A stretch of 64,000 bases of DNA from assembly GCA_964658305.1 (NCBI GenBank), contig OZ210885.1, positions 15,438,001 through 15,502,000 of the forward strand, given 5' to 3'. This document shows positions 33,190 through 64,000 of the stretch, in pieces. A program made the position numbers and the translations under genes. Position 1 is the stretch's first letter, and each line of letters opens with the position of its first letter. A model generated the notes under the pieces. That model was given only the letters and a program-made list of their open reading frames with translations. It was not told the origin of the DNA and searched no databases. Source of the stretch: Leptogorgia sarmentosa. Lineage: Eukaryota.

Positions 33190-34455
33190 TCATTGTCCTC
33201 CAATTCCAAGGTTTCTACCTTCTTCATTTAGGAAATATTCTGCAAGTGTATCACAAATGATAGATGCATCACTTTCATGATCTCGCCCTTGTACCCCAAT
33301 ATTATCTGGCTGATTAGTTTCCTCTCTTACATCAAGCCATTCTTGCAAGAAATCATCTCGCCTCAATTCACAAACGTTATAGACCACACAAGAAGCTGCG
33401 ACGATGTACGTTGCAGACTCTACTGCCATATCAACACGTTTAAGAAATCTTCAAAAACGTCCCTTGCACCTTCCGAAAGTATTTTCAACGGTCATTCGCG
33501 CCCTGCTGAGCCTTTAATTGAAATTGCGCTGCCAACGAGGTGTATCTGCGTTTTCGGGGTAGGCTTTCATAAGCCATTCCAACAGAGGGTAGGCAGGGTC
33601 TCCAAGTAATACTGGACTGATATCAACACCAAAAATGGTTTGATCCATATTTTCTTCGAAAAGTTTCTTTTGAACACCCAAGTTATAGAGTTCTGAATTA
33701 AAAAGAACACATGCGTCATGGACGCTCCCTGGCCAACCCACCACTATATCACGAAAGAGGTAACGACAATCGATGACTGCCTGCATAACAATGCTATGGT
33801 AGCTCTTCCTGTTAACGTAATCCGTATGATTTTCCTTCGGAGCTTGGATAGCAATATGAGTTCCATCAATCGCACCAGCACATGCAGGGAAACCCCATCT
33901 CAACTTATAAAGTCTCATAACTTCTCTCAAATCTTGGCCTTTAGGTATTGATAAAAAGCGCGGTTTCAGTTTTTTTAATATTGCCATACATACGTCTTTT
34001 ATACAGAGACAAACAAATGCGGTGGAAACCCCAAATAAATTTGCCACTGTTCTGTATTCTGATGTTGAACCAATGTAATAAAGTGTAATTGCCAGGCGTT
34101 TTTGTGGGGAAATTGCATGCCGTAGCTTTGTATTTTTTCGCGTAATATCACCTGTAATTTCTGATAGAATATAGTTGAAGGTGTCTTTGGAAATGCGGAA
34201 GTTTACATACCATTCTTTCTGCGGTAGACTCGTTAAAACAATGTCAAACCAGTGATTACTTTGAGGAAGCATCCAAACTGACCGGTCGATCGGAGGATTG
34301 AGAATTGCAAATATGGCCATGATTAACTGCATTCGTTTTATATGACTTCGCCTATATCTTCTGATGTTTGAATGACTGCTGAGCATCTTTTCTGTTAGTG
34401 GCAGTGAACTTCTTCTGGACGATACTAAGCACTTTAAAAATATTGGATCCGCCAC
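33190..34455 (-). pseudogene. Harbinger (HARBI1-like) DDE transposase
   Basis: NFRISKDTF, GFPACAGAIDGTHI, YVNRKSYHS, GWPGSVHD, LLGDPAYPL, RMTVENTFG. In-frame stops at ~33514 and ~33450; start codon reads GTG. Confidence 0.92.
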
Positions 34456-35470
34456 GTTGTTTAAAAAACGTGGAATATCGCGCCAAAAATAAATTTATGC
34501 TAGCAGTACCAGAACCATTTTTATCCGAACCGCACTAATTTTTTTGTCTAATGTAAACGGGCCTGTTTAGCAGTACCAGAACCATTTTTATCCGAACCGT
34601 ACCAAAAATTTTCCGTAATGTAAATGGGCCTTTTGTTTACAGTCTTCGATCATGAAAACCAAAACCAGTTTTATAAAGGCACAAGAGCACTGATGAAACA
34701 TGGCCACCAGTTTCCTGAACAATAACTTCGATGCCACCAGCTCATCGACTGAAGTTGAAAGTGATGGTTGCTCATCAATTCAACAGCACAGTAGCGAGGA
34801 AGAAGATACAATAGTTGTTTCAAGCCAATACGCGCCGTATGCAGATGAGCCTCTCACTCCAAGTTCAAACTGTGACGATGACGGTGATACTCATGCAGAT
34901 TTATACGATAACGAAAGACAAGATTTAGATGGACTGACACCCGAAACACTGGCTGCTCGTCAAGATGGGGACATTTGCCTTGATTCTTGGTAAGTCCGTT
35001 TAACAATTTCAAGTTTCGGCGAAGCAACAAGTTCGTAGTTATAATCTTTGGTTATGTCTACAGGTGCAAATGCGAGCACTGTCGCACACAAAACGTCGTT
35101 GGGGCAACAGAATATCGTTGCTGTAGAGAGGTTGTGGACGCCTGGGGAAAATATGAAGTGAAATCGTGGACAAAATATTCGACTCGTCGAGTTGTGTCTC
35201 CGAGTATCAAATCGACTGGTCCACTGTCGCGTTCGACTCGTCAATAATTACATTATACACACATTACTGTTCGTTCTCCACTTACCAATGTGCATCAAGG
35301 TTAGTATTAGGGTTGCGCATATATTGAGAAATAATGTCAATGGGCAACTTGCACTTAAGGTTAAAGTTGCTCCCTACACTTTACAGTATAGAAATGTAGA
35401 AAATGCATCGAGTAGATAAACTCTTTGAGAAGATAGTGCTTTTTAAAAATCGAAGTTTGTATATAATGTA

Positions 35471-35604
35471 CTGTATTCTCTCTATTTAGCCCCCCCCCCC
35501 TCTCAAATAAGCCCCCCCCCTCTCAATTAAGCCCCCCTCTAAAGGTCCTGAAATGAATAAGCCACCCCCCCCCCCCCCCAGGGGGCTAAATAGAAAGAAT
35601 AAGG
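35471..35604. mobile_element. Tc1/mariner-pogo-type MITE
   Basis: TA|CTGTATTCTCTCTATTTAGCCCCC ... GGGGGCTAAATAGAAAGAATAAGG|TA; a related end occurs at ~41344. Confidence 0.65.
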
Positions 35605-36656
35605 TATAACAGTGACAATCAAAATTGATCACAAAAGTGACATCACTACTGTTGCTACGGTAACAATGACAATTAAAGATGGCAGGTATTTTGCCTTTAA
35701 ACGCATTTTGCTTTTGAAAACGCCTGGTTACCCACATTTTTTATTTTGAGAAAACATTTTCTTGCAGTACCGTAAATTATCGGATCAATTTTAAAAAAGT
35801 TCTGTAGAGCCAGAAAAATTTTGAAAAACCCTGTTTATAAATGTTTTAAAAATTTAGTTCTTTAGACCAATTTCCAACTGTTTGATTGTCACTGTAGATA
35901 TGGTATACAGATTTTGATTGCTAGAAAGCACCATCACCTCAAAGGTTTGATCTAACAAAATCTAACTGATGCATTTTCTACAATCTACAAACTGTAGAGA
36001 GTCACCTTAAGAAAAAAAATTAATCTGGGAATAAGAAAGAATATTGGGATCCCACCGTGGTCAGGCAAATTTTTTCAGCCTGCCCGTTGTGGACGCACAA
36101 TCAGAGTGACATCACAATGCATTCTACACCTGAGTACATTTGCACTGTAATAAGATTCATACATGAAAGAATATTTCCAGAAAGAAGTTATCAATCTTAG
36201 AAAAACTGCAAAGTTTGGTTACAAAATGTTTGTATACATTTGTATTACATGTGGAAATTGGTAACTAATTTAGTTACCAATTCATGCACATAATACAAAG
36301 TATACAAATTTGCTAACTTTGAAGGGCTGTATGTTACAACATATTGCAACCAAACGTTGCAACATTACTAATTCCAAGATGCTCTTTCTAGCTGTCGTGA
36401 TAGATTTTGTTCCTTTCGCTTAGATTTAAATTTAGTCTAAATCACAAATCGTCCATTGGTTCATAGCCTGTGAACAGGCCCTCGCAAGCCTGCAGGGAAT
36501 AAAACGGGTGCGATGAAGCGAGGGCCTGTGGACATTCCTATTAGAACACTGTTCCGCCCCTTTCTAATTTTCCCGTGGTAATTATTCGCGCATCAATCAA
36601 ACAGTCACGAGTTATATAATAATTTCTAATTATAATGTGATCTGGGCGGTACTAAC

Positions 36657-37274
36657 ATGAGCGCACAGGCCGTATGTCGCTTATGCAAAAAACAATTGAT
36701 TGCATTCGGCTCAAGACTTCCGAGAGTTTCTTTATTTGCAGTTCTCAAAAACAAGGAATTAGTCACCGCACCACAAACTACTGTAGAACTACATAAACTG
36801 TTCCTGCAAATGGGTTTTCCGCTTCAAAAAGGGAAAAACTTCTCCGAATTGTGCTGCTTATTGTGCGCTCGTAAGACGGTAAGATGTTACAATTTATTTG
36901 AGTCAATAACAAAACATTGCAATGATATAGGGCGCCAAGAAGACTCTACTTCAAGACCTGCACTTCAAAGTCCAAAGCTTCGCCAAAAACGAACAGTGGT
37001 TGCCCATTCTCCAAGTGGTGTTTCCCCTACGGTTAAAAAATGCAGATCTGGCCATGGACAGGCTGTACCTACTTCGAGAAGGGTATTGAGTTTTAATGTT
37101 GACATCCAAAAAGAAAACGAACCAGCTTGCACTTCCAGCTGTGTAGAAGATTCAGAAAATGGCAGCCCAACTCTCGAAAACACTGTTGAAGAGCAAAACT
37201 CAAAGAATGAGATGAATATTGACGACAGAATGAAAGGTTTCATGGATTTATCTGGAACAGCGACAGTCGTAAAA
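36657..37274 (+). CDS. First exon of an Academ ORF (CxxC..CxxC zinc-binding N-terminus), truncated
   Basis: MSAQAVCRLC...LCCLLCARK; donor GTAAGT at 37275; downstream exons are deleted. Confidence 0.55.
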
Positions 37275-37399
37275 GTAAGTAATAATACCTTTTATATTTA
37301 ACGTTGTGAACTATAGTTATAGAGCTTTCAGTCGAGCTTTGTATGCAAATTATATTTTTGTGTCGTATAGATTATAGTTGGTTGGCCCAATTCAGGAAG

Positions 37400-38860
37400 A
37401 ATCATCGAACATGAATGTAAAGATGTTAATGAGAAGAAAGCATTGAAGTGTATTGCCAGACAATCCCCATTGTCACTACAATGACAATTTCCCTTACATG
37501 TTGAACAACACAGATGGGCTGGTGTTTGTGGAGATACATCATCACAAAAATATCCATATAATCCAACCCTTAAACAACAATCACTGTTTAACAATATTTG
37601 CTTTAACTCTTTGTTTATCTCAGATAACTGTCTGTTTGTACCATATATTATACTGTAGGCTTGTTCTCCATCCCTACCAGCCCGGCCAGTTTGCTGCACA
37701 AGTTCTGTGATGCTTTGCGGAGGGCCAAAATGGATAACATACCTGACACTTGGAAAGTTAATACCCATTCCAAGGGCACATGTTGCAATAACAACTCTTT
37801 GTGTACCATCATTTTGGAAGTCACTGACTGTTTGATTCTTATGACTGTCCCATGTCTTTGCATAATAAACACCTAGCAATGGTACTCTTTCCCCTTCCTT
37901 TTCAACAAATGCTTCACTTTTTAAGATCATTAGCAGGTAACTCAACACACTTGAGATGTCATTGAATGTCCTACAAAAAATTATTGTTTGTGGAGTATTT
38001 TCACATTCCCTTTGGATCATTTGAGCAATCCATTTCAAGTGATCCAGCTTATCACATTCATCATTTATGTGTACAAAATTCAGAAAAATTGGAGACACAT
38101 CAACAATCACTGGGTTAATCATACCACACACCTTATACAGGGACTTTCTTTCATCAAGCTTCACAGATGCAGTAAGAGCAAGAAGAGGTGTTCCCGGTAA
38201 AAATGAGCGCAAATTTTTAACTCTTCCAAATGCTTCTCTGAATGGGACCTGTTTTTTTCCTCGTCTATCAAGGGAAGCTTGACCACTGAAAAATAACATA
38301 CAGAGACATCCTATAGTATAGAACTGTATGTAATACAATTACCTATATTCTTTAGCTCGTAGAAATCATCCTTACCAGAGCGAAACAGAATGAACTTCAT
38401 CCACAACAAGTGTCACAATTTGCTTCCCTAGCTGGTTGTCTCTCAATTCACCTAACCATTCATCTGATAACCAACGTTCCGCACTTCCGTACACAATATC
38501 AGCATCATATCCACGTTTCAGCTCGCTTTCATCCTCCTCATCACCCAAAGCGAATGCTTTCAATCCTAATCTCTTTAGTTCTCTTACTTGGTCGTTTATT
38601 ATCGACAAAAGTGGTGTCACAACAATAACAGTGCTTTTACCCTCCAGACACCACAGCTCCTCCAGGACGCTTGGCAAGATTTGAAATATCAAGCTCTTTC
38701 CGTATCCAGTGGGAAGAACGGCTAAAACATCTTTTCTTTCTGAAACCGCCTTTATACACGCTTTCTGTCCACTTTTTAAATGCCTAACGTGTCCAAATTT
38801 CGCTAAAGATTTATCTAAAACCTTATCGAAACTAAAATCGCTACTGGAACACCCAGCCAT
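37400..38860 (-). CDS. RecQ-type SF2 helicase (2 exons, 3' end truncated or chimeric)
   Basis: LPTGYGKS, DEVH, LALTAS, VIATCALGMGINFP, QQTGRAGRDG, Zn site C..R..CCSTC; intron ~38374-38286. Confidence 0.9.
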
Positions 38861-39235
38861 ATTGTTTAGTAAATAAATTTTCGGCAGAAAAAATATTTAT
38901 GCAAATTATCGAGATTGACCAATCAGAGCCTGATACCAGATTCTGGTATCACGGAACAGTGTTCTAATAGGAATGTCCACAGGCCCTCGCTCCATCGCAC
39001 CCGCTTCAGGTCGCACCCGTTTTATTCCCTGCAGGCTTGCGAGGGCCTGTTCACAGGCTAATTGGTTCATGCATTTAAAATTGTTTTTTGAATACTAGTT
39101 CATGTGATAAAGCATGAATTTTTATGCACATGTCAAAAATGCCATAGCCCCTGCTTTATGCAACACTGGACAGTGCACCCCATTCCGTGATATACCAATT
39201 AATTTTTGTACAATGTTAAATACTATTTTCTGTAG

Positions 39236-39903
39236 GCACAGCTATGTTACATGAAATGCTAGAAAAGTTTCGTAATAGTGAGACTGTGTCTAAGGTTCTC
39301 GAGGAAAGTCCCTCATCTGAGGTTTATTGGGCGATCATCAACTCTTCTCATTGGTCTTCGACAAAGGCTGTAACAGATGCAGATTTGCCACTTCTAATCC
39401 AATGTCTCTTAGAAAACGAAATCTTGTTATCACGAAAGTATGAGGTAGACCAGCTAAGTGAAAGGTTGGCTTTTTTGGGATTGCTGGAGAAAATGAAAAA
39501 GAATGCAGATCTTTGCTTCAGTCTATTCTGTTTCAGTGATGACGCAGTTCTTACAGCAGAAAGATTTATCGGTCTCATTGACAGCAAAGTTGAGATTCCA
39601 ACTGACTTTTCTAAAAAGCAGTCGTATGATTGGTTTATTCAGTACATTCAGAGTGCAAGTGCTGAGCAACTGCAGTGTTTACTAAAGTTCGCAACATCTT
39701 TCAAAACAATCCCTCCTTATGGTATGGAACATAAAATTACGATCAAGTATCTCCCAGATGGTGATGAAAAAGCAAGTTTACCAAAATCCCTGGCTTGTTT
39801 ACCCATCCTGAGTCTTCCCACAGTACACTCCAGCCAAACGAAATTCAACGAAAGTGTAGATCTTGCTTTAAAATTCGAAAGCGAAGGTTTTTCGAGCTCC
39901 TAA
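39236..39903 (+). CDS. Terminal exon of a HECT E3 ligase (C-lobe), upstream exons lost
   Basis: LLKFATSFKTIPPYG..ITIKY..LPKSLACLPILSLP..ALKFESEGF; catalytic Cys present; acceptor TTCTGTAG. Confidence 0.8.
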
Positions 39904-40438
39904 ACAAAAAGGAAAAAAAAGGTAATAAAAACCATATGGTAAAGTACTACTAACTTTATCCTCTGCAGGAGCTGTCTCCCAAAGACACACATTAGGTATG
40001 TTGTTTCAAACACTTTGTTAATATTGCTATCAGGCCTGTTAATTGTTTCTGGTCCTTTGAGTTGGTATTGTTATGTTAATATATTGTACCTATACTGTTG
40101 GCACTAGTACTGTAGGTATATACTATGACTAGTAAAAATATTACTACTTTGTCTTCAAATTTGTTAACACAGAGGGATGTGTTGCAGGGACATGCTGCAG
40201 GGACAAATCCCATCATGTATATTTTCTGTCATAGGCAACCAGCCAACCTCAATAGATGTGCCTACAAAACACCATCAATAGCATATTTTACAAGCTGGCA
40301 ACTGGTATTTTCTTTAACCTTAGACATATTGTGAGAACCTTTGATTATGCATTTAAACAGAAAAAAATCAATATTTGCAAATTTGGACTATTATTTTTTG
40401 CTATTAGATACTCTTAACAAAAAACCCCTGAAATTTCA

Positions 40439-40537
40439 ATTTCATTATGTTTTATTAATTAGAATGTTTAAATAAGACAGTATATATATTATATACTGTC
40501 TTATTTAAACATTCTAATTAATAAAACATAATGAAAT
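40439..40537. repeat. Near-perfect 99-bp palindrome (47-bp arms)
   Basis: ATTTCATTATGTTTTATTAATTAGAATGTTTAAATAAGACAGTATAT, a 5-bp spacer, then the exact reverse complement. Confidence 0.9.
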
Positions 40538-40558
40538 ACTATTATACAATGGGCAATA

Positions 40559-40949
40559 CAGGGTGTATCATTTATATCTGACTGCTGGGGTGGTTGTTGT
40601 CAAACATCACCTAAAACAGGCTTCATAGGGTGTAAATTTATGAAATGTTGTTGCAGTCGTTAAAGTCCTAGGCAATTTGGTGTACAATAAGTCCATCGCA
40701 CAACCTCTCTTTTACAAGCTGCTAAAACATTTCCCAAACTTACACTCCATGAATGATACCTTGTTTAGTTGGCGTTTGACAACAACCACCCTGGCAGTTG
40801 GATGTAACATTTTCAGATAAATTTTAGTGGTGGAGTAATCAGAAGACCTTCAAATATCCATATTAACAAAAAAACAACAATCGAAAATTAAGCTGCTTGT
40901 TTGGTTGATAAGCTGTTTTATAATTGTTTGCTTTTTTTGACACACCCTG
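40559..40949. mobile_element. Degenerate Tc1/mariner-type MITE
   Basis: TA|CAGGGTGT ... ACACCCTG|TA, with an internal inverted repeat GGGTGGTTGTTGTCAAAC / GTTTGACAACAACCACCC. Confidence 0.6.
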
Positions 40950-41058
40950 TAGATTTACTTGCTTTACTTATGAATTTTGTTATGTATTGTACAACAGGTG
41001 CTAAAATGTATATAATGGTTAATGTTATGTTATTTGTTAAATAAAGTTTATAATTAGC

Positions 41059-43842
41059 TTACTGAATTGCTTGTTGTAAGCTTATTACCACATTGAGATA
41101 AATGTCCAACCCAAATGACTGACTTTCAGCTAAAGGATTGTACTGCAAACAGTCATGCACATCAGTATCATCTGGTAAGTCTACGTATACTTGAGGGACC
41201 TCAATATGTGACCCACTTTCAATGTTGTCACCCCACTCCTGACTTGGCAATGGTCCATTCCAGTCTATACTTGATTGCACAGCCTCCATCTAAATTTACA
41301 CATACTGCTATGTACTTTTCTATCATGACCATATTTATATGTACCATATTCTCTCTATTTAGTCCCCCCTCCCTAATACATCCTCTCTCTCTAATAAACC
41401 CTCCTTTTTTAAGTTAAGAAATTTATTAAGAACCCTCTCTATTAAGCCCTTCATTATTAAGCTAGTAGAATTTTTTACCATAAAATAAATATGCCCCCCT
41501 TCTCTCAAAAGGTTCTGAAGAAAATTTGTTAAAATTTCTTCATCAAATGTCAATTTTTTATGTATGCTGTGCACTTATAGTTACAGTACATGTATTCTAA
41601 CTGTAAACAGTACTCACGAAATGAACAAATCTACATTATTTAGAACTGTTGTATGTATTGCTCACCTCGCTGATTTCATGACTTGAACTGTTGCTGTGGT
41701 GACCCCACAACCATAGCTGTGCTGGAGACATGTTTCGTTCACTTGACAATGGGTGGTTATTCCATCCATTACCAAACTCCAACAGATGAGCATTTATCTG
41801 AGGCTCAAATACATATCTCAAAGAAAACAGGTGTACATCATTTGTAATGTCAAGGAGTCCTTCATGTTCCATGTATGAAAACAGGTTGTAATAAATATAG
41901 GTGCATCCTTGGAAGAGATCCCTCCAGAATCTTTCAATTCTTTGATTATGGCAGCTCTTACCAGCAATGAAACTGCCCCTGTTAGGACCTCGGTCTTGAT
42001 GTGTGAACATAAACCAAGCCACATCGACATTCTCACAACCTTGATCGGCTCTTACACGAGATGGTAGGCCATATTGGGTGACAGCTTCTTTAAATAGTGT
42101 CAGAACAGTATCAGCTCTATTGTTGCAGCTGCATCTTAAATACATGATGTGCCTGGAATAGCCATCAATCCCACCATGTATCACAAAACCCCATCTGAAT
42201 GCAAAAATGAAATAGCATATCTATTAAAAAGAAAAGCATGGAATGTATACAGTTAATAGTTACGTAAACCATATGCAGTGGCTTCTTGGCGACACATTTA
42301 AACTAGCGAACAAATGAAATTTGTCTTTGTAAAAACTGATTGTTTACAACAAAAATTTGCCGATGTGCGGCTTTCAGCTTATCATAAAACTTACATGATT
42401 GAAAATGCAGGAGCAGGAAATAGCATTATAGAGAACATACAAATAATTTCTTTTTCGGGGAGGGGGCATGGTCCTGAACCTCCCCAAAGGTCTCGCACCT
42501 TTGGCACTTGCATTGCCCCCCCTCCAGTCTGAACAGCGACACCCCCTTGCTGTTTACCTTATTAATTTGTGATTACCATCAATATGCCACATGGATAATG
42601 GTGCTTGAACAAAATATGTTCTTCGGTTAACTGTTGTCAACCGTAAGGCACGCATTAGTATTCCTTGTGGATCTACTCTTCTCATACTATCCCGGATTCT
42701 ATTCCACTGAATATTGAAGCCTCTAGCTCTTAAGTTCCCACGCATCTGTCGATAACCACAGTTGGGAAATTCACTCACAATTCTTGCACTATATGGAAAA
42801 ATTATGCAACTAAGTAAATTTCGAAAATTATAGCATTTGGGGTGGGGACTGTTTTAGGTTTCAGATGAAAAATATGGATCAATTTACTTTAACGCCCCCC
42901 CCCCCCCCCACCTCAGGTGACGTATATTCGTTCTTGAATATAAGCCCTCCTTTTATCATGTGAAAAGTTAAAAAGAAAAAGGGAAAAAAGTCAGAAATTT
43001 CATTTAAAATTGCATCAAACTTTCTGAACAGGCTCACTCTCATATCTCTTCGGTCGACATTCATTGCCTTTATTTTTGTTGTCCATCGATTTCAGTATGT
43101 TAATTGCTTCTTGACTAAGCGCTATGCTAAAATTTTTAACCGCATGAGTAGAAGTGTGTCACAGTGACTGCTTTCTGTCCAAGGCCAAAATAACGCAGGA
43201 AAAAATTTAAAAGACTATTGAAACAGATAGTATAGGGGGGCTTCTTTTCAAATGCAAAATTTCGACACACAGTATACAGGTGGTGGGGGGGGGGGGGCTA
43301 TATTCAAATGCTAAATTTTGTCATTTGAATATATGCCACCCCAAGCGAGGGGGGGGGGATTGTTAAAGTAAATTGATCCTGCTTACTTACATCAGTTGAT
43401 CTAAATCTGAATCACTCATACAACTGTAGGTATTTCTCTTTAACTGAAATTTGTCAATGCGCCTTTGAACCGTCTTTGGTGATACAGAAAAAAATTTCGA
43501 AATTTGAACGTTGGTGAAGTTATACTCAATATAAAGTTCTAGCTGTTCTTTCGGTATGATAACTTCTGGGCATCCACGGCAGCCTGTCTTCTTAAATAAC
43601 TTTTCTTGAATTTCTTCAGCCTTGTTGTTTAAAAGAAGTTCATGAGCACTGTTTAGTAATGTCACGAGTTGGAATGGAATATTGAAAGATACATCTGCTG
43701 CATTAAGTAAATAAATAATTCTTTCCAAGTGAAGGCAAATATAATCCCTACAATCTTCATTCTCTGCTGTTATTCCATCTATACGGTTGATTAGAAACTC
43801 TATACTTGAGCGAAGGCCATTCTGCAACGACGCCGTCGCCAT
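41059..43842 (-). CDS. IS3EU-type DDE transposase, 4 exons, apparently intact
   Basis: Exons ~43842-43391, ~42788-42558, ~42194-41666 and 41289-41059 join in phase: [63 protein letters not shown]. Confidence 0.88.
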
Positions 43843-44684
43843 GTTTAAAAACAAAAACATACATGATTCCGATTAATTATGCAAATATGCACCTTTTTCA
43901 ATATATCAAAAGGCGACGAGTCGAACCCGTGGTGAGAATCAGCACGACGACTCGAAGACGGGAAAAGATTTTGTTTAGTTCGACCCGACCCGACTCGGCG
44001 AATCGGCGCGTGAACAGTCGAGGCGTGGGGGCACGACGCATCAAAACGGGATATTCGACTTGTCGAAACCGACATTCGACGAGTCGAAACCCACAATTGA
44101 CGAGTCGAACGCGACAGTGGGCCAGTCGATTTGATACTCAGAGACACGACTCGACGAGCCGAATATTTTGTCCACGATTTCACTTCATAGGAAAAATGGT
44201 CTTTGATGGGTTCATTGAGAAGATGAAATGCATCACCGAACATGAAGATTACAGTGCAATGTCAAATAAAACAGTCTTATTGCAAGTTGCGCCACTTTTG
44301 AGGAACAAAGATGGAGTAAAATATAAACGCTGTGCTGGAACCCAAGAAAACGAGTTAGTATATTATATCTGTTGTAACGTTTTTACCTTCGATACGTGTC
44401 GCGTTATATATATATATATTATTTTATTGAAGGTTTGTTCGATCAGTTGCCTATAGGTGGATTCTAAGATGGCTTTGTGGGTACATTGGATGGGATAATA
44501 GAAGACCTCTGCCAGCTTGTATATATGAACATATAAGGACCAAGTACCAAACTGGACAATCAAGGCGTTACAAGAGGGTGTGACCAATGTCTTGACCTAG
44601 TTCACAGCAGGGTTGCCACAGTTTTCTTTGGAATGCCCGGAACGATTGCAGAAGGTACTCCCGAAAAACTGCATGGTAAACCAT

Positions 44685-46381: not shown

Positions 46382-46882
46382 GCTCTTAAAACTGTGAAGT
46401 AGTGCAATCCTTATTTACATTGAAGCTCGCTATCAGTTTAATTCATAACTCTTTTAATGATTCACAAATTGTTTTTACGGTCAGCCACCTAAGAAAACTA
46501 AAACCCATAATGATGAAATTATAATAAACTTGTCATAAACAACGCATGGAACAATAGTAATGACCGCATATGTATTGTCGAATGAACCATGAAAATTGAA
46601 ATAGGTTTATATGGTAAATGGTTATTTAATCTTGTTAATACGTATGTTAACTTCTGTGTGAAAAACGTCGATCTGATGTGCTTATAAGCACATGCATGCT
46701 CAAATAAGGTAATTTAAATGCCGTAGAAACCGCTTTGGGAGTATACATACATATAATACATACCCCATACAAGGGCAGAAATATAATCAAGATTATCATC
46801 AATTATCACCACTAAATAACCACATGCACATTAATATTAGTCTTTAATTGTTTGCTTTCTGGCTACTTGCTTCACTGTAGTT

Positions 46883-48499
46883 ATGTCTTGCTCCAAACTA
46901 TCGAAAGTAAGTCGACAAAGTAAAGGAACATGGAGTTCACTTCACAAAAGGTTAATCGACTTGCCATTCGACTATGAAGAGCTTTTCGATGGTGCAGTCT
47001 ATGACTTTCTGCAAAAAGTGGCAAAGTCACTAAGTACAAGTGTGGGATACTTGCTTCCTGGCATAATAACGACTACGGCGTTTCTCGCAGGAAACACACA
47101 TAAAACAGTTAAATATGGTCATCACCAGGTCCCCCTAAACTTGTACATAGTCTACGTAGGACCAACCACCACCGGAAAGTCGCAAGCCTTGAAAGAAACC
47201 GCAATAAAACCAATAACCTGTATTATGGAGAATGCGGACCTGCCAAACTTTCTCATTGAGAAATGCACATCTTCGGCATTAGCCAAGGTTCTCTCTCAAC
47301 ATGGGAAAACGTTCGTTGCCTTGCCAGAAATATATGACTTCATCAATAAACTATTAAAATCGGATGATGAAAATGCTACTGGTGATGCGCAGCTCCTCTG
47401 TGAAGTATTCTCCGGTTAGCGTGCTTCGTATAGATACGCAACAGAGAAAACACGGACCATTCCAGAGAACACGCCATTCACAATCGTCGGAGCAACACAA
47501 GTGCCTTTTGCAGCTCGTATAATCGCTCGAATGGATCAAGGTCATGGTTTACTTGATCGCTTTATGATCCTTTTCCCGAATTGTCTTCGACCAAATATAA
47601 ATGAGACAGAGGAAGCTCGACGTGCGCTGAATGAAGTTCCCTTAAAATGTATCACTGACATTTTTATCGAACTGTACGAACTTTTGGGAGACAATGCGCA
47701 AACGTACACATTCACCACAACTGCCCAGGTGTTATTAAAAGAAATACAGTCCGAGGAAATTGAGATTGTAAACGCTGCTATCTTAGATGGAAAACCTTCA
47801 GCCAAAAGCAAAACGTTCGAGTTGATCAAAAGATTGTCAGTTTGCCTCCACATATTTAACCATGTCGCTAGCAAGCTCATTGCAGGTGAAAAACCTACTG
47901 CACCAGAAGCAGTTGTTCCATTCACTGCTGTATCCAGAGCACAGAAGTTGATCAGCTATGGCAACACGCAGAAGAACATAGCAACATCGGTAAGATAATG
48001 CATATGAAAATTAACAGAATGCATGCTAGATAATACCATACTCTAACCCATGTTACACTGATTTATTGAATTCACCATTAGTTTATTGATGAAATGCTGA
48101 CCACATGTAGAGACAAGGAAACCTCCACAACCACAACAGGAGCAAATACAGGTTGCTATTCTACAAATCTCTGGCCCTATTGTAAGTTTTAGAGGATTCA
48201 AACAGTCAGCGCCGAGAAAGATGAAAAGCCTGACAGTAGAAGAGTTCAAGCACAACGCAGAGGCCTTATCAAATTACGGGAAGTTGGTATCCATACGAGT
48301 TCCCCGCCAACCAAAACCATCGAGCATTCACATAAAGAAAGAACCCAGCAGCATACAGTGGCCAGGTGTAATATCCCAGCAGACCTACACTGAAAAGTAT
48401 CGTCTTCCGTTGCATTCCTCTGTTGGGGAAGGTGTGAAAAGAAGTCTTGTTAATGCAGGACACGTCACGAACGAGTTCTTCACCAAACATGTTCCCTGA
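46883..48499 (+). pseudogene. DUF3987/YfjI-like P-loop ATPase (primase-associated helicase-like), spliced
   Basis: VGPTTTGKS (Walker A), TSSAL, LPEIYDF (Walker B-like), LLCEVFSG*RASY..IVGATQ, GLLDRF. TAG at 47417-47419 is read through in frame; intron ~47989-48080. Confidence 0.7.
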
Positions 48500-53176: not shown

Positions 53177-54680
53177 CTAAATCTACAAAAGCACAAGCAT
53201 TGTCCTAGCCCTAACCTCAACCCATTTGCATGGTTAACGGACGACCATATCGATGCTGCTCAACAACTTATCAAGGAGCTTGAGACGGGTGTCGGTGGCC
53301 TTAACTGTATTGCGACTATGACACACTGCACTAGATTTGCTGTTCCTCATGAGCAAAACCAAACTATTTAGTGCCACAATACTGGAGCGCATTGGGTCAC
53401 AACGAGTTCCATCACAGGGAAGGTGATTGTGTACGAGAGTATGAGCACAACTTTAAAGTGCCTATAACCCCAATTTTTGTTTTAATGTAATTTAAGAGAG
53501 TGTCATTTTAGAAGATTTTTGGCGCAAAAATTTTTCAATTTGGAGGCATTGTATAGTGCTAAGCCATCCCAGAAGCAGCAAATTTGATTTAAAATTGCTG
53601 CCATTTTGGTTCACGGCCGAGCTTTAATGTTAGTAGCCTGGTAGCGAATGTATGACGTAAATTCCGGACAACATGACAAGAACACAATAGGAAATTTTAA
53701 TGCATTATTTGCATAGCGCGCTTCATAGGAAGAATTACGAAGAAAATATGCCTGAAAGGTGCGTAGTATACGGTTGTAGCAACACTAGGAATGTGCGGGA
53801 AGGAATATCTCTTCATGCTATTCCTTTTTCCGGAGATGAAAGGACGGAGGCCAAGAAAAGAAGAAAAAAGTGGGTCGATTTTGTTTGCCGGACACGTGCG
53901 AACTGGAAACCGACAAGTCGAGCAGTCATATGCTCGAAGCACTTTAAACACGAAGATTTCTCGCATTGTTATGCAAATGTTGGAGACGAAGGAAGTCTTT
54001 CAAATCGTTGGTTAAAACGCGATGAAATAGGAATAGTTCCTTTTCCTACAATTTATCCAACGTCAACCGAAGAACAACAGCCAACTGCACGAGATAAACG
54101 AATGGTAAGTAAAAATAAGTAATCGGATACCGATATAAAATATACTGATTTACAGGTATGACTTTTATCCATCGCAACCTCAATTCGTCTTAATGGTTTT
54201 TGAAATTGATTAGATTGTGAGGAGAGCCAAGTCGACAACTGTAGAAAGTGCCAGCCGTGTGAGCTGTGTTGGGGAAACGAGCGGGGAAAGCCGCAAGACA
54301 GCTGACGAACACGAACCCATTTCGGCATCTCTTGATGTTACAGATCCGCAGTCTGATCAACCATGGTGTTGACAGACACTACTCTCCCCAATCTCCTACA
54401 TAGCGCAGCTGTGAACCAAATATAGTATGAACTTCGCCTGAGCTAGCGACCAGGGTATTTAACCAAATTGAAAAATTTTTGCGCCAAAAATCTTCTGAAA
54501 TAACACTCTCTTAAATTACATTAAAACAAAAATTGGGGTCATAGGCACTTTAAATGATTCTCTCAAGCGACAGTTAGTGTGCTTGTATGAGCATCTATGT
54601 AATGATGATGGTTCTCTCAACATCTCCGTAATTCTTCAACAACGTCAGAAAGGAAGCTCAGATTGTGGCCTTTTTTGCCA
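53177..54680 (+). pseudogene. Ulp1/C48-like cysteine protease fragment, split by a Kolobok
   Basis: WLTDDHIDAAQQLIK..TI*CHNTGAHWVT..VYESMSTT|LNDSLKRQL..QQRQKGSSDCGLFC, in frame across the TTAA after removing 53457-54553. Confidence 0.8.
53457..54549. mobile_element. Non-autonomous Kolobok retaining a THAP exon
   Basis: TTAA|AGTGCCTATAACCCCAATTTTTG ... CAAAAATTGGGGTCATAGGCACT|TTAA (~90-bp TIR). THAP exon 53747-54104: MPERCVVYGCSN..KKWVDFV..ICSKHF..PTI. Confidence 0.92.
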
Positions 54681-57428: not shown

Positions 57429-59085
57429 TTACTTCTTATGAAGCAAGTTGTAGTTCCGTGTAGCCTTTTTAGCACTTGTTAACACCTCTTCTGGTGGTTC
57501 AAATTGGCGACAATTGGCAAGCTTAATTGTCATGAGAGACGAAAGTGTCCCATTCACAGCAAGCGATCCATGAAATGGTGTCTTGTTTTTCTTTATCATT
57601 GAGAAAACTCTCTCGTCACCAGCATTTGAATGAGGCAGAATACGAACAGTTTTTGCAACCTTACAGAGCCGTCTAAACTTCAAATTCTGATCTGCTAGCT
57701 TCATGGAAGATATGTGACCCCAAATAACATCCATTCGAAAGAACATGCTGTTTCCTCTTCTCTGTCTTCGTCTTGCTCCGTCATCTTCACCCATGCACAG
57801 TCCCAGACGTCAAACTGGAATTTCTAACTTCGCCATCATCTGGTAGTCCACAAACTCCTCTTGGATTTTCTGAAGCTCTGTAGCAGTCGAAAATGGCAGA
57901 AGCTCGGGATATTTCTTGATGAAATATTCAACATCTTGAAAGAAAGAGACTTCTCTTTGGAAAAAATCGACAAATCGTGCATGCAGCAGTAGCTCATCTT
58001 CTAAAGGAAGCTTTGCAAGTGATTCCGCTGTGGCTACTTCGTAAAACTGGCGCACTGCTTCATAGAAACTGGAAACTTTCACTGGCCAGATTATGCATCA
58101 GATAACATGGGCATCCCATAAAATAACAGGCTGGATTTTTCTGGATTACTCTTGTGTAGATTTAATTTCTTATTCCAACATTTACACTTGTGTTATCTAT
58201 GCCAAAACCAACACAGTTACTCCATGGGAAATTGTGTGAGGTCACAACTTCGTCGATCTTATTGAAGATTGCAGCAGCCGTTGCTGAATCTGTCCCTCTG
58301 GTTGCACACATGTCAAGGAAGCGACTTTCTACCTTGCCACTATTTGCATCAAATATTTGAACTGTCGATGGATTCATCTTCTCCAGGCCAACATCATTGG
58401 ATCCATCTGTGAGCATCGAATATGGGTCACATTTCATTACAGAAACTAAATCTCTCTGGAAATAAGGTGCAATGGAACTGTTGATCATACAGGTTGTCTT
58501 TGTTGCGGCCGAGGCATACTTCTTGGCGATTTTAGAGTCGGGAAAAATATCGGAGAGTAATGGACTCAAATGATTTGCAAATGCTAAAGGTATATTTTGA
58601 TTGGCCAGCAATGTTGCCATTTTCACTTCAGCACGAATAATCTAAAAAAAACACAGGATGAGAATTTCAGGACTTTAATTGCAGTTATGTGACGATATAA
58701 TTTGGTTGAACTGATGAAGAGTTTATGTTGTATAATTTGGTACCTTGTTTTTAATGTCAGATTCTCCCGCAAACATAGAAGTTATTGTCGGTTGCTTGCT
58801 TTGCACTTTCACTAATTTCATGTGGTTGCTGCTCGCGATATGTTTCACATCTGATTCCCCTTGATGCGAACATGACAAGATCTGACAACAAATATTGCAA
58901 CGGTGGGACGATGGATCCTTCTCTACAGCACTTATGAAAGGATATTTTTTAACCGAGTCTTTATTAAATTTCGTCTTGTACGTAGCAGCACCAGCCAACT
59001 TCGTCCGTTTTTTATGCAAAACTTCATTATCAGTCCCGTCACTGGAATCAGAATTCTGCTCTGAATTCAGCCTTTTATCAGCCAT
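57429..59085 (-). pseudogene. Decayed hAT transposase, related to the 30.1-32.3 kb copy
   Basis: CNICCQILSCSHQGESDVKH, intron ~58743-58643, TDGSND, GIDNTSVN, internal deletion at ~58160-58085, LPHSNAGDERVFS. TIRs not identified. Confidence 0.85.
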
Positions 59086-59846
59086 TTAGCGAGAGTACAA
59101 AATAACAGGCTGGAAAAAAAATCTGTGAAACTGCTAATTGTGCAAGAATAGCAATAGCTTCTTTCTCGCACAGAATTTTGGAGCAGAATCATACATTCCA
59201 AAGTATGCTCAAGAAAAGAAAAAGTTCTGCACGCCTTAAGGTAAATATATATAGGTCATTTACCAGCTGGGAGGTCCGTACAGGAAAATACAGACCGACC
59301 TTATCCCGTACAGACCGACCTAAACGGAAAATAACTTTTTTTTTATTTATGGACTCAGATAATTGCAACACCAAATCTTACAAACATTCCAAATATTTTG
59401 TTATTCATAAAAAACAGCTCCAAATATGGAAATCGATCACATGATTCAACTATTTACACCAACGGTCCAACACAGGAACACTGTTGTTTCAAAGCTAAAT
59501 TGCTGCCAATCATTTATTTTAAAGTCAACAACGATCAATCCAAATTCAATTCAATTGAAATGTGAAATGTATCAGACGAAATATTGTCAATTTAATTTGA
59601 GTCCGAGTCATCACTGATGAGAATTCTTCGTTTTTTTTACATAACTTCTGGACTTCTAGTTTGGTTATGAGCGAGATAAAAATTAAACGAAACAAATTGA
59701 AATTATAATCAGATGAAATTTACATAATATCCTATCATAATTTACATAAATACAGCAACTTAATTTATACAGGCATTTGGGCAGGACATTTCAGTTTGTT
59801 TATACTTTGTTTCTGCTTGTTTACTTTAACTATTGACTTTGATATA

Positions 59847-60340
59847 CTGGGTGTCCCAAAAAAAACTTGCGCTGTTTCATTTCATGTAACGTAAAAACTA
59901 TAAAAGCTATTGCACTCAAGTAAGCTTTATTGTATTCAGAAAGGGCTAACTTAAATTTTGATATATAATATTTGAATGTCCGTGCCACATTTACTGAGCT
60001 ATCGATGTTTTATATCGAATAAGCATATTTGACAATGCTAAAAATTAGCATAAAATGGCCTATCAAATATTATTTGGTTAAACTTGATATATAGTTTTAT
60101 TGTGGTCAAAAGAACGAATGAAAAACATAACTGTTGGATAAACATTTATTCATTCATCAGAGAAAGTATGTCCTCTTGCACGTATACAACGTCTTGCACG
60201 GGAAACCATTGCATCATATACATTTGATAAGCCGTGTTTCTCGATTAATTTTCTCAATTAATGTTATTTGAGTGTAATAGCTTTTATAGTTTTTACGTCA
60301 CATGAAATCAAACAGCACAAGTTTTTTTTGGGACACCCGG
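59847..60340. mobile_element. Tc1/mariner-type MITE
   Basis: TA|CTGGGTGTCCCAAAAAAAACTTG.. / ..CAAGTTTTTTTTGGGACACCCGG|TA; ~75-bp TIR. Confidence 0.88.
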
Positions 60341-60924
60341 TATATTACTATTTACTATAATATTTATCTACTGTAAATTACAGGCAATGAAGCACATGGC
60401 TATGTGACAAAGCTTTATGTAATATGGCAACATTTCGTTGTAGTGCTTGTAGCAGTAGCTCTGTACGATAATGCCCAAGCGCGATACCCTGACTATGCCA
60501 GAAGCGATACCAAACTCTGAGAGTCATTTTTGGCCTTAAATACCTTTCTGTATTGTGTGGAGTGATGCATTTTCATCCAATTTTGTAGTGATTGCCCTTT
60601 GTTTCTTAATGTTTAGTATAATGTTATTGTTTGTTTGTGTCCAATAAACAAATTTTCATTCACTCTATTGTTTGTGTTAAATGAACTGTTAAATGAACTG
60701 ATGAATGTTACGGATTATGTAAATTGTGCTAATGAAAGAGGGTGGTAAAGGGGGGGTATGAATCACATTTCACAGAGAAGAAAACAGCCATTTCACGATT
60801 CACATGCCTTAAAAATGCGATCTCACGTTTCACAGAAAATTGGATTGTAACAATAATAATAAAATAATAATAACACGTTCATTTATTTTATCGTTTGTAC
60901 ATCGGCAGCTATAAAGAATAATTT

Positions 60925-63900
60925 TTACATCCAGAGCATTGCTCTGCTTGATGTCTTTACCACCCATCCACTTCTTGTTCTTCCTGATGCAAACAAAAAG
61001 TTTAATTCTCTGTTTTGTACATGATTCTCTACTTCTTCGTTTCCTCCTCCACATTCTTCTGCTGCAGATTCACTACCTGAAGAATCGTCATATTCGGATA
61101 GCTGATCAACTTCAGACTCAATAGCATTTCCGACCAAATGATTCTCATTCACAACACCTCCCAGTTGTTCCTCATTCTCAGAATCTTTTGATTGTCCCTC
61201 ATCTTCAACATCATCCAATTGTTCTTCATCTTCAACAAGAAGATCTAGTCTTTCACAGCGGTGGACAGCAGTCTGATACATGTTTAGTGGGAGAGTCCCT
61301 GGCTTGTATTTTGTGGTTTCCTGCCGCACTGTGCGTTGTCTAACACATTTCCCATTGTCTCTAGCCCATAACCGCATTAGTTCTTGATCTTCTGAACGCA
61401 TTTGCGGTTTGTTTTGTTGCTTCATTCTTGGAAAATCTTGCAGATGTATTTGCGTTGATGGTACTGGGTAGTACGACGTGGGGTGAGTGAAATAAAAGGC
61501 AGACCACTGGGTCATTCTTTTGGCGGCTTCGAGAGCTGTCTCACCAAAGTCTCGGGCATACTGCAACTGCATGCAAGTGGGATGCTTGAAATGGGACACT
61601 GCATGCAAATTTTCAACTTTTACGGTGAGAAGAGCTTCTGGATTGAAGGCGAGTTCTGGATTAATCGTTTCTATGTTCTTAGTAAGACGCATCAACCCTT
61701 GATTTATCATGCCCACAGATTTGACGGTTTTACTTGCAATGATACCTGCAGGTCTATTGATCTTTTTACTTGTTCCCAGAAGAGTTTGTACCGTCTGAAC
61801 GGTATTTTAAGGTACTCAACGACAGCTTTGGTTTTCTGCTCTGCTTCTTGGAGAGTTGAAGTGTGTCGTCGCTTGTGCTTTTGATGGACTGAAAATGCCT
61901 CGTACAATTTCCCCAGATTTTCGAGAAACTTAACAGCAGAACTGGCATCTGTTACTAATTTAACAGCTCCAACTTGCGCATCAGTAACGAGAAAATTCTT
62001 CTTGTTTTCAGTACAAATATCCATAGGTTGAGAAAATGATGCTTCAGTTCCGTCATTATTACCTTCCTCCCCCAAGCCAGCGAGTAGCACGATTTCTTTG
62101 TTTGTCTTGATCTTAACTTGTCTGCTACCCATATCCACAAATGCAATATCTTCACGGTCGCCAATAGGGGCTATGCCTTGCACCTCTGTGCAGAAAGCAG
62201 ATCCGTTGGATAACAACAAAGAATCCTCTTGAGTTTCGAGGTCGATCGCTGAAATGCCGTTGTTATGAGAAATGAAAAGTGTACCACCCAAATGGTACAT
62301 GTCCAGTACACAATTGCAATTGACAGGATATTTTGATAAATCACTTACCACTCCTGCAACTCCTACACCATCAAGTGAGAGTTCCATAAAATAGAAACGG
62401 GAGTCAGTGTCTGAAGCCACAACTATCATATCATCACTGGCAAGGCAAATTCTGTCTACAATCACATTTCTGTCAGTATTTACTGCAGACATCAATTTTC
62501 CAGCTGTGTCGTACTCGTTTCTCAACCTTATAAGGAATTTTTGTAGTCGCTTTCTGAGCTCAACCATGGTCCCCTCATCTGATAATCGTCTACTGCGAAG
62601 AGCATCCTGGAGAGACTTCTTTGTTTTCAGAGTTGACGGTTTCAGGGAAACTTTCTGTTCAATCTCTACCACTGTGATAGCCTTTTTCCCTCTTTCTACC
62701 ACCAGGCAATACCTTTGCTACTTAGATATACCATACTCCTGGCATCTTGTAAACTTGATTTCACAACACTTACACAAACAGGGTTATGCATGTCGGCCAA
62801 GCATAACCTTGTCTCCCTCTTCAGCGGAGCGTAATCCAGGAAGAAAAATTTCCCATTTGGCCCGAGACAAACATTGATCGGGTGAGGATACATTCCAACT
62901 TTGTTGTTATCAGTTGGTCTGTATTTGTCAGGAATTAGAGTGTGGACTACTCTTTTCTTTAGTGACGACAATACTTTCAGTACATCTGGGCTGGACAATC
63001 TTAAAATTGGCTCCACGGCCATCCGATCTTTATTCTGGACATCTTTAGTGAGACACCTTCTTAGACTAGACCTAATAACAGGATTACTATCGTCTCGTAA
63101 CGTATGTATCACTGAAAGAGACATGCGACTTCCGTTGAACAGGCAGAACCAATTAGAAAAACTGCATTTGCAACTCTTTCCTACATGCACTGCGTCAGGG
63201 AGATAAACACAAAATTCAAGCTCTGGATCGACCAAGCAATCCAGCTGGAGTTGTTCTAAAAGTTCCATAGCCTTTTTGTTTCCTTCTTCACAGTCAGATG
63301 ACAGAGCAAAAATGGCGAGGTGAACACACTGAATATTATTCGACAAACAGCGACTACAGGCTCTTAAAGCTGGAGAGTAGCTAACTTCGCCAGTTTGATG
63401 GCAGTCGTCACATAGACTTTTCCCCTCCCAGCAGGTTTCACATTTCTTATTGCAGATGTTTCTGTTGCACTGAGAGATTAGCTCATTGGCGCCAGTATTT
63501 TCAACACAAGCTTGACAGCATTGCAATGATTCGATCTGTTTAGTGAACATACTCAAAATGTCCTGGCCAGTCTTCCCTGCCTTCGTCAAGTATTCCACAG
63601 CCACTGGCATACTGATGGTGTCACAGAGTGTTGTTATCATTGAAACATTAGCCTCGGTTATAACATCTGATTTCAGAAATGCTGCATCTGGAGAGGGGTT
63701 GTCCTTTACGAACTGGAGATCAAACTTTGTCTTCAAGCCGACATTACGCTTTAGACCTTCATCAAACATTATTCCTGGTTGTAATGCTGTGCCATCATTT
63801 TGTATCGCCGCACCAAATATTTTCACAATTGGTGCATTGATAACAGGAGCTATCTGGGCTGTTTCACCTGATGCAAGCTTGAGAAATCCCAGATGCATGT

Positions 63901-64000
63901 CTTTTAAAACACCACTAGCTGTTGTGTAACCACCTTTCTGTCTGGTGGGCTTTGATGGTCCACCAAGGTTAGGATTTGCTTCTTCTGGCTTCTTTATACC
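60925..64000 (-). pseudogene. P-element-like DDE transposase with Cys-rich, SAP and NHL-repeat insertions (frameshifted; 5' part outside the window)
   Basis: IQNDGTALQPGIMFD (D1), SSDCEEGN (D2), LPDAVHVGKS (DxxHxxK), KDRMAV, LLTVKVENLH (E); SAP-like LQDALRSRRLSDEGTMVELRKRL; NHL-like AGLGEEGNNDGTEASFSQPMDI..VTD. Frameshifts at ~62700 and ~61800. Confidence 0.65.

What the first reader, a model, noticed from the sequence alone, without database searches (positions are those of the whole stretch)
60925..64000. P-element-like transposase with NHL beta-propeller, SAP and Zn-cluster inserts
Seen: the motif order D..FD / SD..N / DxxHxxK / RMxV / VEN mirrors P/THAP9 transposases. However, a Cys-rich block (CCQAC..CETC..CDDC..CSRC) sits between D1 and D2, and several hundred residues with NHL-like repeats and a SAP-like motif sit before the catalytic E. 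Inference: a divergent DDE lineage whose insertion domain has acquired a propeller, an architecture I do not recognise as a named family. A candidate end with TCAC repeats lies at ~60749-60835.
Basis: partly seen in the sequence, partly recalled or inferred. Interest (0 to 1): 0.72.

Follow-up and report, generated by a model that had tools for sequence, protein, structure and literature searches.

The report
Propeller-carrying P-like jumping gene family
This is most of a jumping gene whose predicted DNA-cutting enzyme resembles that of the fruit-fly P element but carries a predicted propeller-shaped domain and a likely zinc-binding block inside it, and whose relatives sit between 6-base duplications instead of the 7 to 9 bases of P elements, so it likely belongs to a separate branch of cut-and-paste transposons in marine animals.

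Summary
Confirmed and extended. The three minus-strand frames (64000-60925) are one gene of a family of intact 1100-1400 aa proteins (named relatives: Mytilus, Oculina, Branchiostoma, Priapulus). In 45 near-full members D, D and E are present in 44/45, 44/45 and 45/45, with about 11 conserved cysteines between the two D. The predicted core's only significant PDB match is Drosophila P transposase (Foldseek E 4e-6). A predicted six-bladed NHL propeller (Z 23-25), itself holding a SAP motif, is nested in the helical insertion domain. Other samples of the same organism lack both frameshifts. Relatives end in GAGG(G)...(C)CCTC; 5 of 7 two-ended elements have an exact 6-bp target duplication. It works like P but fails several P features: duplication length, termini, THAP domain, and (mapping partly inferred) the GTP-binding residues, so it is predicted to be GTP-independent. 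The window's other end lies beyond 64000 and was not seen. Nine literature searches found no description; Repbase could not be searched. This scan noted the same architecture before on other DNA (e1-7583089).

The parts
62696..64000 (-). Transposase gene, first frame in the window (open at the window edge; equals residues ~145-576 of intact relative P0003): pre-catalytic region, RNase H strands 1-5, Cys block, DxxH, first two propeller blades
   Evidence: about 145-170 more codons plus spliced N-terminal exons are expected beyond 64000
63794..63796 (-). First catalytic Asp (predicted; NDG motif, on strand 1)
   Evidence: D in 44 of 45 members, 1 gap
63326..63520 (-). Cys-rich insert between strands 3 and 4 of the RNase H fold, likely binding about three zinc ions (inferred)
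   Evidence: 10 positions Cys in 43-45 of 45, an eleventh C/H in 44 of 45; modelled at pLDDT about 90
63293..63295 (-). Second catalytic Asp (predicted; SDCE..N, end of strand 4)
   Evidence: D 44, E 1 of 45
63185..63196 (-). DxxH signature after strand 5
   Evidence: D/E 44, H 43 of 45; signature of hAT, P, MuDR, Kolobok, Dada per PMC9587614 passage
61945..62950 (-). Predicted six-bladed NHL-type beta-propeller nested in the helical insertion domain (approximate limits; spans the first frameshift)
   Evidence: model residues 493-836 of P0003 match NHL propellers at Z 23-25, rmsd about 3; Foldseek; profile hit to SOQ1/NHLRC2 E 1e-23/1e-20
62532..62624 (-). SAP motif, looped out of the propeller
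   Evidence: Pfam SAP E 3.3e-4 here; 12 of 30 members at E<=1, best 3.4e-7; two helices 607-616 and 625-645 in the model
61707..62717 (-). Second frame (SAP, remaining blades, start of post-propeller helices); frameshift near 62703
   Evidence: one extra base there in 3 of 3 laid runs that cover the place
60925..61806 (-). Third frame: helices closing the insertion domain, catalytic Glu helix, basic C-terminal region, acidic tail, R-x-R-S-G-R-like end, stop; frameshift near 61804
   Evidence: one extra base there in 2 of 2 laid runs that cover the place
61612..61614 (-). Catalytic Glu (predicted; VEN)
   Evidence: E in 45 of 45; aligns with the PVEN Glu of a PF21787-positive P-like transposase
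60882..60887 (-). AATAAA, candidate polyadenylation signal 40 bases after the stop
   Evidence: sequence; function not tested
60762..60835 (.). Subterminal array of TCAC/GTGA units, likely transposase binding sites (inferred); same-sense arrays occur at 5' and 3' ends of relatives
   Evidence: L001, L013, L014, L059 upstream; L020, L068 downstream
60738..60753 (+). 3' terminal inverted repeat of the element (GAGGGTGGTAAAGGGG read inward)
   Evidence: matches the 12 relative ends listed; a flanking multi-copy repeat runs on with other letters behind 60738 in 3 of 4 runs
60732..60737 (+). Predicted half of the 6-bp target duplication (ATGAAA); its partner should follow the unseen end beyond 64000
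   Evidence: inferred from family TSD length; partner not seen
60559..60738 (.). Multi-copy host repeat into which the element appears to have inserted
   Evidence: tables 2, 7, 8

Best explanation
This is the 3' part of a likely cut-and-paste DNA transposon of a distinct P-related lineage, whose predicted DDE transposase carries a cysteine-rich, likely zinc-binding block between its two catalytic Asp and a predicted NHL propeller with a SAP motif inside its insertion domain. Mechanism: an N-terminal C2HC finger (seen in spliced upstream exons of relatives) and the SAP motif would bind the subterminal repeat arrays (inferred); the RNase H core would cut at the GAGG...CCTC ends and join them to target strands staggered by 6 bases (6-bp duplication shown in relatives; chemistry inferred from the fold). 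The propeller-SAP unit most likely serves as a built-in DNA-holding arm of the transpososome (inferred, about 45%; host-protein docking is the main alternative). The enzyme is predicted not to need GTP, because the P GTP-contact residues are not kept and the terminal 3' base is C, not the G that GTP pairs with in P.
For: Family of intact ORFs. D/D/E in 44, 44, 45 of 45 members whose core identity falls to 22%. Core model (pLDDT 83): only 2 PDB matches at E<=0.001, both Drosophila P transposase (4e-6, 5e-6); next DDE enzymes E>=0.037; VIA Z 8.4, 214 aligned, model 24-353 to chain 199-428. Post-propeller residues 836-970 align to a PF21787-positive P-like transposase 607-737 with Glu on Glu (prob 81%, E 1.2e-5). 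Propeller Z 23-25, 321-418 residues long in all 45, dN/dS 0.14-0.49 in 10 unsaturated pairs against 0.09-0.57 for the core. L005 and L010 (99.4% alike) part exactly after CCCTC. Exact 6-bp duplication in 5 of 7 two-ended elements, 5/6 and 3/6 in the other two; chance 3.5e-4 each. Non-autonomous elements share 81-91% identical ends with transposase-bearing loci. Window end bin is 13-20 times deeper than the gene body in 4 of 4 runs (a hint only).
Against: The window copy's own 5' end and TSD were not seen. No fully intact element with both ends and a clean TSD was found: the L024 group (5978 bp, exact TSD) lacks residues ~1-310 including D1; L059 has both ends but a degenerate 6-7 bp duplication. 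The P match has rmsd 9.8 and Z near the level the tool calls middling; it covers only the half before the propeller; D-D-E distances could not be measured (no coordinates given). Sequence profiles did not find P transposase in the PDB, and the D1 and D2 segments did not align significantly to the P-like profile (E 0.34, 0.13). PF21787 passes its cut-off in only 1 of 30 members. The mapping of GTP residues is by spacing and an indirect profile alignment. The propeller's role is untested.
Confidence: 0.85

Rival explanations
1. An ordinary P-superfamily member with extra domains, perhaps already entered in Repbase under P or another name.
For: Closest fold is P transposase; motif order is P-like; P-superfamily TSD already varies from 7 to 9 bp (PMC3698922 passages).
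Against: 6-bp TSD, G-starting ends, no THAP hit in N-terminal exons, no Asp three residues before the catalytic Glu among the 44 of 45 residues listed.
Confidence: 0.3
2. A domesticated, non-mobile host gene derived from a P-like transposase.
For: Purifying selection; gene body depth is similar to flanks in the laid runs; spliced N-terminal exons.
Against: TIRs, TSDs, deleted derivatives at unrelated sites (L070, L071, L077: same end, different flanks), many broken copies, insertion into a repeat in the window.
Confidence: 0.05
3. A P-like element that recently captured a host NHL gene as passive cargo.
For: Propeller resembles host proteins NHLRC2/SOQ1.
Against: In frame, at the same position and of similar length in 45 of 45 members down to 22% core identity; under purifying selection; splits the helical insertion domain cleanly.
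Confidence: 0.04

Closest known systems
Drosophila P element transposase (PDB 6P5A/6PE2) and THAP9/Pdre elements
   Same: RNase H DDE core, DxxH after strand 5, helical insertion domain between strand 5 and the Glu helix, spliced gene, short TIRs with internal repeats, acidic/basic C-terminus
   Different: D1-D2 spacing about 168 (P: 230 to 303) owing to the Cys block; D2-E about 557 (P: 303 to 531) owing to the 340-aa propeller with SAP; 6-bp TSD (P 8, 1360/Galileo 7, BuT5 8-9); ends GAGG...CCTC (Pdre2 CATACC; P 3' terminal G); C2HC finger instead of THAP; GTP-contact residues not kept (partly inferred)
NHL six-bladed propellers (NHLRC2, SOQ1, TRIM71/Lin41, Brat, teneurin)
   Same: Fold of residues 493-836, Z 21-25
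   Different: Here nested in a transposase and interrupted by a SAP motif; a shared fold shows no shared function
RAG1/RAG2 recombinase (analogy only)
   Same: A DDE enzyme working with a six-bladed propeller (RAG2 as kelch propeller is recalled knowledge); one distant member, P0152, also ends in a PHD finger (Pfam E 1.4e-4)
   Different: RAG1 is a weak structural match (E>=0.17); the propeller here is NHL-type and in the same chain; no homology to RAG2 shown
hAT, MuDR, Kolobok, Dada (C/DxxH group)
   Same: C/DxxH signature (PMC9587614 passage)
   Different: Hermes E 0.06 and ISCth4 E 0.1 against P 4e-6; Kolobok makes TTAA 4-bp duplications

Membership tests
P superfamily | RNase H fold with conserved D, D, E and C/DxxH | tested here: met
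   geometry of the triad not measured
P superfamily | Core closest to P transposase among solved structures | tested here: met
   Foldseek E 4e-6, next DDE 0.037; VIA Z 8.4, rmsd 9.8, 214 aligned; pre-propeller half only
P superfamily | Helical insertion domain between strand 5 and the Glu helix | tested here: met
   helices on both sides of the propeller; post-propeller part aligns to a P-like transposase
P superfamily | GTP-contact residues D528, K400, D444, N447 (PMC7776569 section 8) | tested here: not met
   position E-3 is L/T/V/I/M in 44 of 45; after the conserved F852 (44 of 45) Asp in 2 of 45; residue before V476 is D/A/S/N in 45 of 45. Only the E-3 mapping is firm; the others are by spacing; K385 not mapped; S409-like S/T kept
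P superfamily | N-terminal THAP (C2CH) domain | tested here: not met
   6 N-terminal exon translations of relatives gave no THAP hit at E<=5; they show C-x2-C-x~20-H-x3-C. The window's own N-terminus is outside the window
P superfamily | 7-9 bp target duplication (PMC3698922 passages) | tested here: not met
   exact 6 bp in 5 of 7 two-ended relatives; none exact at 7-10
P superfamily | Ends starting CA, 3' terminal G (seen for Pdre2 and P; superfamily-wide rule recalled) | tested here: not met
   13 of 13 listed ends start GA[G/T/C]G[G/A] (chosen by this motif near family genes, boundary fixed independently by L005/L010 and by the TSDs)
P superfamily | GTP-dependent transposition, 17-nt staggered end cleavage | not testable with these tools
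   needs biochemistry
Kolobok | TTAA 4-bp duplication (PMC9587614 passage) | tested here: not met
   five different 6-bp duplications
hAT / MuDR | Core fold closest to Hermes or ISCth4 | tested here: inconclusive
   listed but weak: E 0.06 and 0.1, Z 5.0 and 5.4
Sola2, Zisupton, IS3EU (features recalled, no call) | GRG ends with 4-bp TSD; SAP with 8-bp TSD; 6-bp TSD with integrase-type core | not tested
   no reference sequences on hand; TSD length differs from the recalled values for Sola2 and Zisupton
TIR cut-and-paste DNA transposon (general) | TIRs, TSD, dispersed copies, non-autonomous derivatives | tested here: met
   for the family; for the window copy only one end is visible

The most novel reading that the evidence does not exclude
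A new superfamily-level group of eukaryotic DNA transposons, sister to P, with GAGG ends and 6-bp duplications, whose transposase has dropped the GTP cofactor and instead carries a fused propeller that does in one chain what RAG2 does for RAG1; it is the autonomous partner of abundant unclassified G-ended miniature elements in marine invertebrates, with intact copies that may still be active.
Probability: 0.3. Interest if true: 0.8.

Novelty: new variant of a known kind. Interest (0 to 1): 0.63.

Why it matters
P transposase is the only known transposase with a GTP-binding insertion domain (PMC7776569). A close structural relative that seems to lack the GTP contacts, ends in C rather than G and holds a propeller in the same domain is a natural control for why P needs GTP and for how insertion domains set target spacing (6 against 8 bp). 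It also shows a DDE enzyme tolerating two large inserts under selection, gives a rule (GAGG ends, 6-bp TSD) for classifying orphan repeats in marine invertebrate genomes, and explains proteins that databases list as uncharacterised.

Tried and rejected
No whole genome is held for the window, so copies could not be counted and the far end not read. No second copy of the end motif in the window. First inverted-repeat search by blastn missed the short TIRs. Viral contigs gave no relative and two chance pattern matches. Sequence searches of the PDB did not reach P transposase. Whole-protein fold searches were filled by the propeller, so the core was folded alone. PF21788 (P GTP-binding domain) rang nowhere, controls included: no information. 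Atlas: no usable hit for the N-terminal piece. No RNA holder listed: no evidence on expression. An LTR-like (KolobokP-type) structure was considered because subterminal repeats run in the same sense at both ends; no long direct terminal repeat was seen in L024 or L059 ends, not pursued. P0200-P0208 looked like a Cys-less sister group but, judged from 4 printed sequences and the profile ranges, are members called from an internal start. Three of the 10 pairs were dropped before the TSD count because their flanks continue the inverted repeat (L153, L197, window 36512).

Full report
Observation. The minus strand holds three frames, 64000-62696 (open at the edge), 62717-61707 and 61806-60925. Against intact relatives they tile end to end (P0003 residues 145-576 at 57%, 586-881 at 38%, 882-1128 at 42%), so they are one gene with two frameshifts. 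The window is repeat-rich eukaryote-like DNA; no whole genome is held.

Family. A search with the first frame among longer proteins gave 41 hits of 3712 candidates, mostly single ORFs of 1050-1300 aa, the named ones from Mytilus, Oculina, Branchiostoma and Priapulus, all called uncharacterised or hypothetical. A profile search of 1.84 billion representatives added divergent, unnamed members (that list also holds many unrelated NHL-repeat proteins; one search gave no taxon names). Of the stored proteins, 45 cover both the D1-DxxH region and the Glu region: D215 is kept in 44 (1 gap), D382 in 44 (1 Glu), E946 in 45, H418 in 43, and ten Cys positions in 43-45. Core identity runs down to 22%, median 32%; D1-D2 spacing is 147-188, D2-E 539-641. 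Divergent members read L-x-x-x-V-E-N-x-F-S at the Glu, closer to the P pattern.

Fold. A model of intact P0003 from 30 sequences has pLDDT 79.5, pTM 0.76: strands 205-218, 259-270, 276-285, then the Cys block (306-371), strand 371-381 ending at D382, strand 411-414, the DxxH helix, helices to 492, a strand-rich region 497-833 interrupted by two SAP helices, then helices with E946. The strand-rich region matches six-bladed NHL propellers (Z 21-25, rmsd about 3). The window's own core, folded alone (355 aa, pLDDT 82.8), has two Foldseek matches at E<=0.001, both Drosophila P transposase (4e-6, 5e-6); TnsB, Hermes, ISCth4 and RAG1 follow at 0.037-0.17. VIA agrees (Z 8.4, rmsd 9.8, 214 aligned, chain 199-428; integrases Z<=6.7). 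The part after the propeller aligns to a PF21787-positive P-like transposase from locus L201 at residues 607-737, Glu on Glu (prob 81%, E 1.2e-5); the D2-DxxH segment aligns in register but not significantly (E 0.13) and the D1 segment not at all. So the propeller is nested within the helical insertion domain rather than replacing it. I could not measure the D-D-E geometry.

Is the propeller functional cargo? It is 321-418 residues in all 45 members, and in the 10 unsaturated pairs among 22 loci its dN/dS is 0.14-0.49 against 0.09-0.57 for the core (decay after insertion inflates both). A propeller-less sister would be about 800 aa, inside the length ranges, and none appeared, though both searches depend on shared words.

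State of the window copy. Four runs (two studies; three with the best holder's organism label) were laid on 59500-64000. All 3 that cover 62703 and both that cover 61804 have one extra base there, both on one contig in X1, and all 4 read a base at 60966 that gives the conserved C-terminal Arg. The frameshifts are therefore likely errors or private changes of this assembly; I did not check all substitutions for stops (49 rows not shown). The bin 60708-60858 is 13-20 times deeper than the gene body in all four runs, with a shared loose end behind 60903 in three: a hint of many short derivatives sharing the end. A multi-copy repeat (60559-60738) runs on with other letters behind 60738 in three runs.

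Ends and target duplication. 80 metagenome loci and 3 contigs from genome bins were fetched. Downstream of the ORF many end in a C-run and CCCTC; L005 and L010, 99.4% alike, part exactly after it. One search lists 13 ends, all starting GA[G/T/C]G[G/A]; the window's is GAGGGTGGTAAAGGGG from 60738, where the host repeat breaks. Genome bin G001, labelled bacterial but holding this element, yielded short elements with both ends. In 800,900 held bases (redundant) 10 pairs passed the TIR filter; 3 were inner parts of longer inverted repeats; of the other 7, five have an exact 6-bp duplication (L024 group, L115, L121, L123, L125; five different hexamers), L200 5 of 6, L117 3 of 6; none is exact at 7-10 bp. 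Chance is 3.5e-4 per pair. L125 shares 501 bp at 86% with the 5' end of transposase locus L014, L200 shares both ends of the L059/L020 family, and L121's end recurs before transposase fragments at unrelated flanks. Against: the L024 group lacks residues ~1-310, L059's duplication is degenerate, and the window's far end is unseen.

N-terminus. Between the 5' end and the long ORF, relatives share short coding blocks, likely exons; database gene models join them to the long ORF (P0027, P0017, P0029). They hold a basic stretch and a C-x2-C-x~20-H-x3-C motif, with no THAP hit.

Mechanism. Shown for the family: DDE conservation, TIRs, 6-bp TSD, dispersed derivatives. Predicted: fold and domain nesting. 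Inferred: zinc binding, binding of subterminal arrays by the finger and SAP, and the propeller as a DNA-holding arm. P transposase binds GTP through D528, K385, K400, V401, S409, F443, D444, N447, and GTP pairs with the terminal G (PMC7776569, section 8 read whole). Here E-3 is never listed as Asp, Asp follows the conserved Phe in 2 of 45, the K400-like place is D/A/S/N, and the 3' terminal base is C. GTP independence is thus predicted (about 60%).

Known or new. It works like a P element but fails P's TSD, end, THAP and GTP-residue features, so I do not file it as a P member. Papers seen: PMC7776569 (passages and section 8), PMC3698922, PMC10983969, PMC9587614, PMC4455052 (passages only). Nine full-text searches, judged from listings and abstracts, showed no description of this architecture. 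Repbase entries, subscription journals, Yuan and Wessler 2011 (not held) and supplements were not seen and could hold the family. This scan noted the architecture twice on other DNA (unchecked AI notes, found after my reading was formed).

Verdict: real, a new variant of a known kind; interest 0.63.

Noticed in passing
window 57429-59085 (-): Broken hAT-like transposase next to the element (weak Dimer_Tnp_hAT, E 0.03).
   Followed up: partly
window 59842-60345: Miniature element with 91-bp inverted arms, deep coverage in all four runs.
   Followed up: no
window 21828-25196 (-): Intact 1123-aa ORF with no Pfam hit at E<=0.001; by eye D..D..DxxH..E motifs of a hAT-like transposase (label from recall).
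   Followed up: partly
window 11116-16526 and 35152-44189: Elements with 266-bp and 94-bp inverted ends holding rva_4 integrase-core frames; the second also holds a HECT fragment.
   Followed up: partly
window 36464-39060: TAG...CTA-ended inverted repeats around DEAD/Helicase_C frames, Academ-like by recall.
   Followed up: partly
window 53452-54554: THAP-domain frame (E 2.7e-13) inside 92-bp inverted repeats.
   Followed up: no
window 29906-32301, 33514-34494, 46841-47998: hAT dimerisation domain, DDE_Tnp_4 (Harbinger-type) and weak DUF3987 frames.
   Followed up: no
L081 (G001), L082 (G002), L083 (G003): Three genome bins labelled bacterial contain this eukaryote-type element, and G002 also P-like transposases: likely host contamination of the bins.
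   Followed up: partly
P0152: Divergent member with a C-terminal PHD finger (E 1.4e-4), giving propeller plus PHD in one transposase.
   Followed up: no
L001, L013, L014, L059, L020, L068, window 60762-60835: Subterminal repeats run in the same sense at both ends, while only the outer ~16 bp are inverted; other subfamilies use other units.
   Followed up: partly
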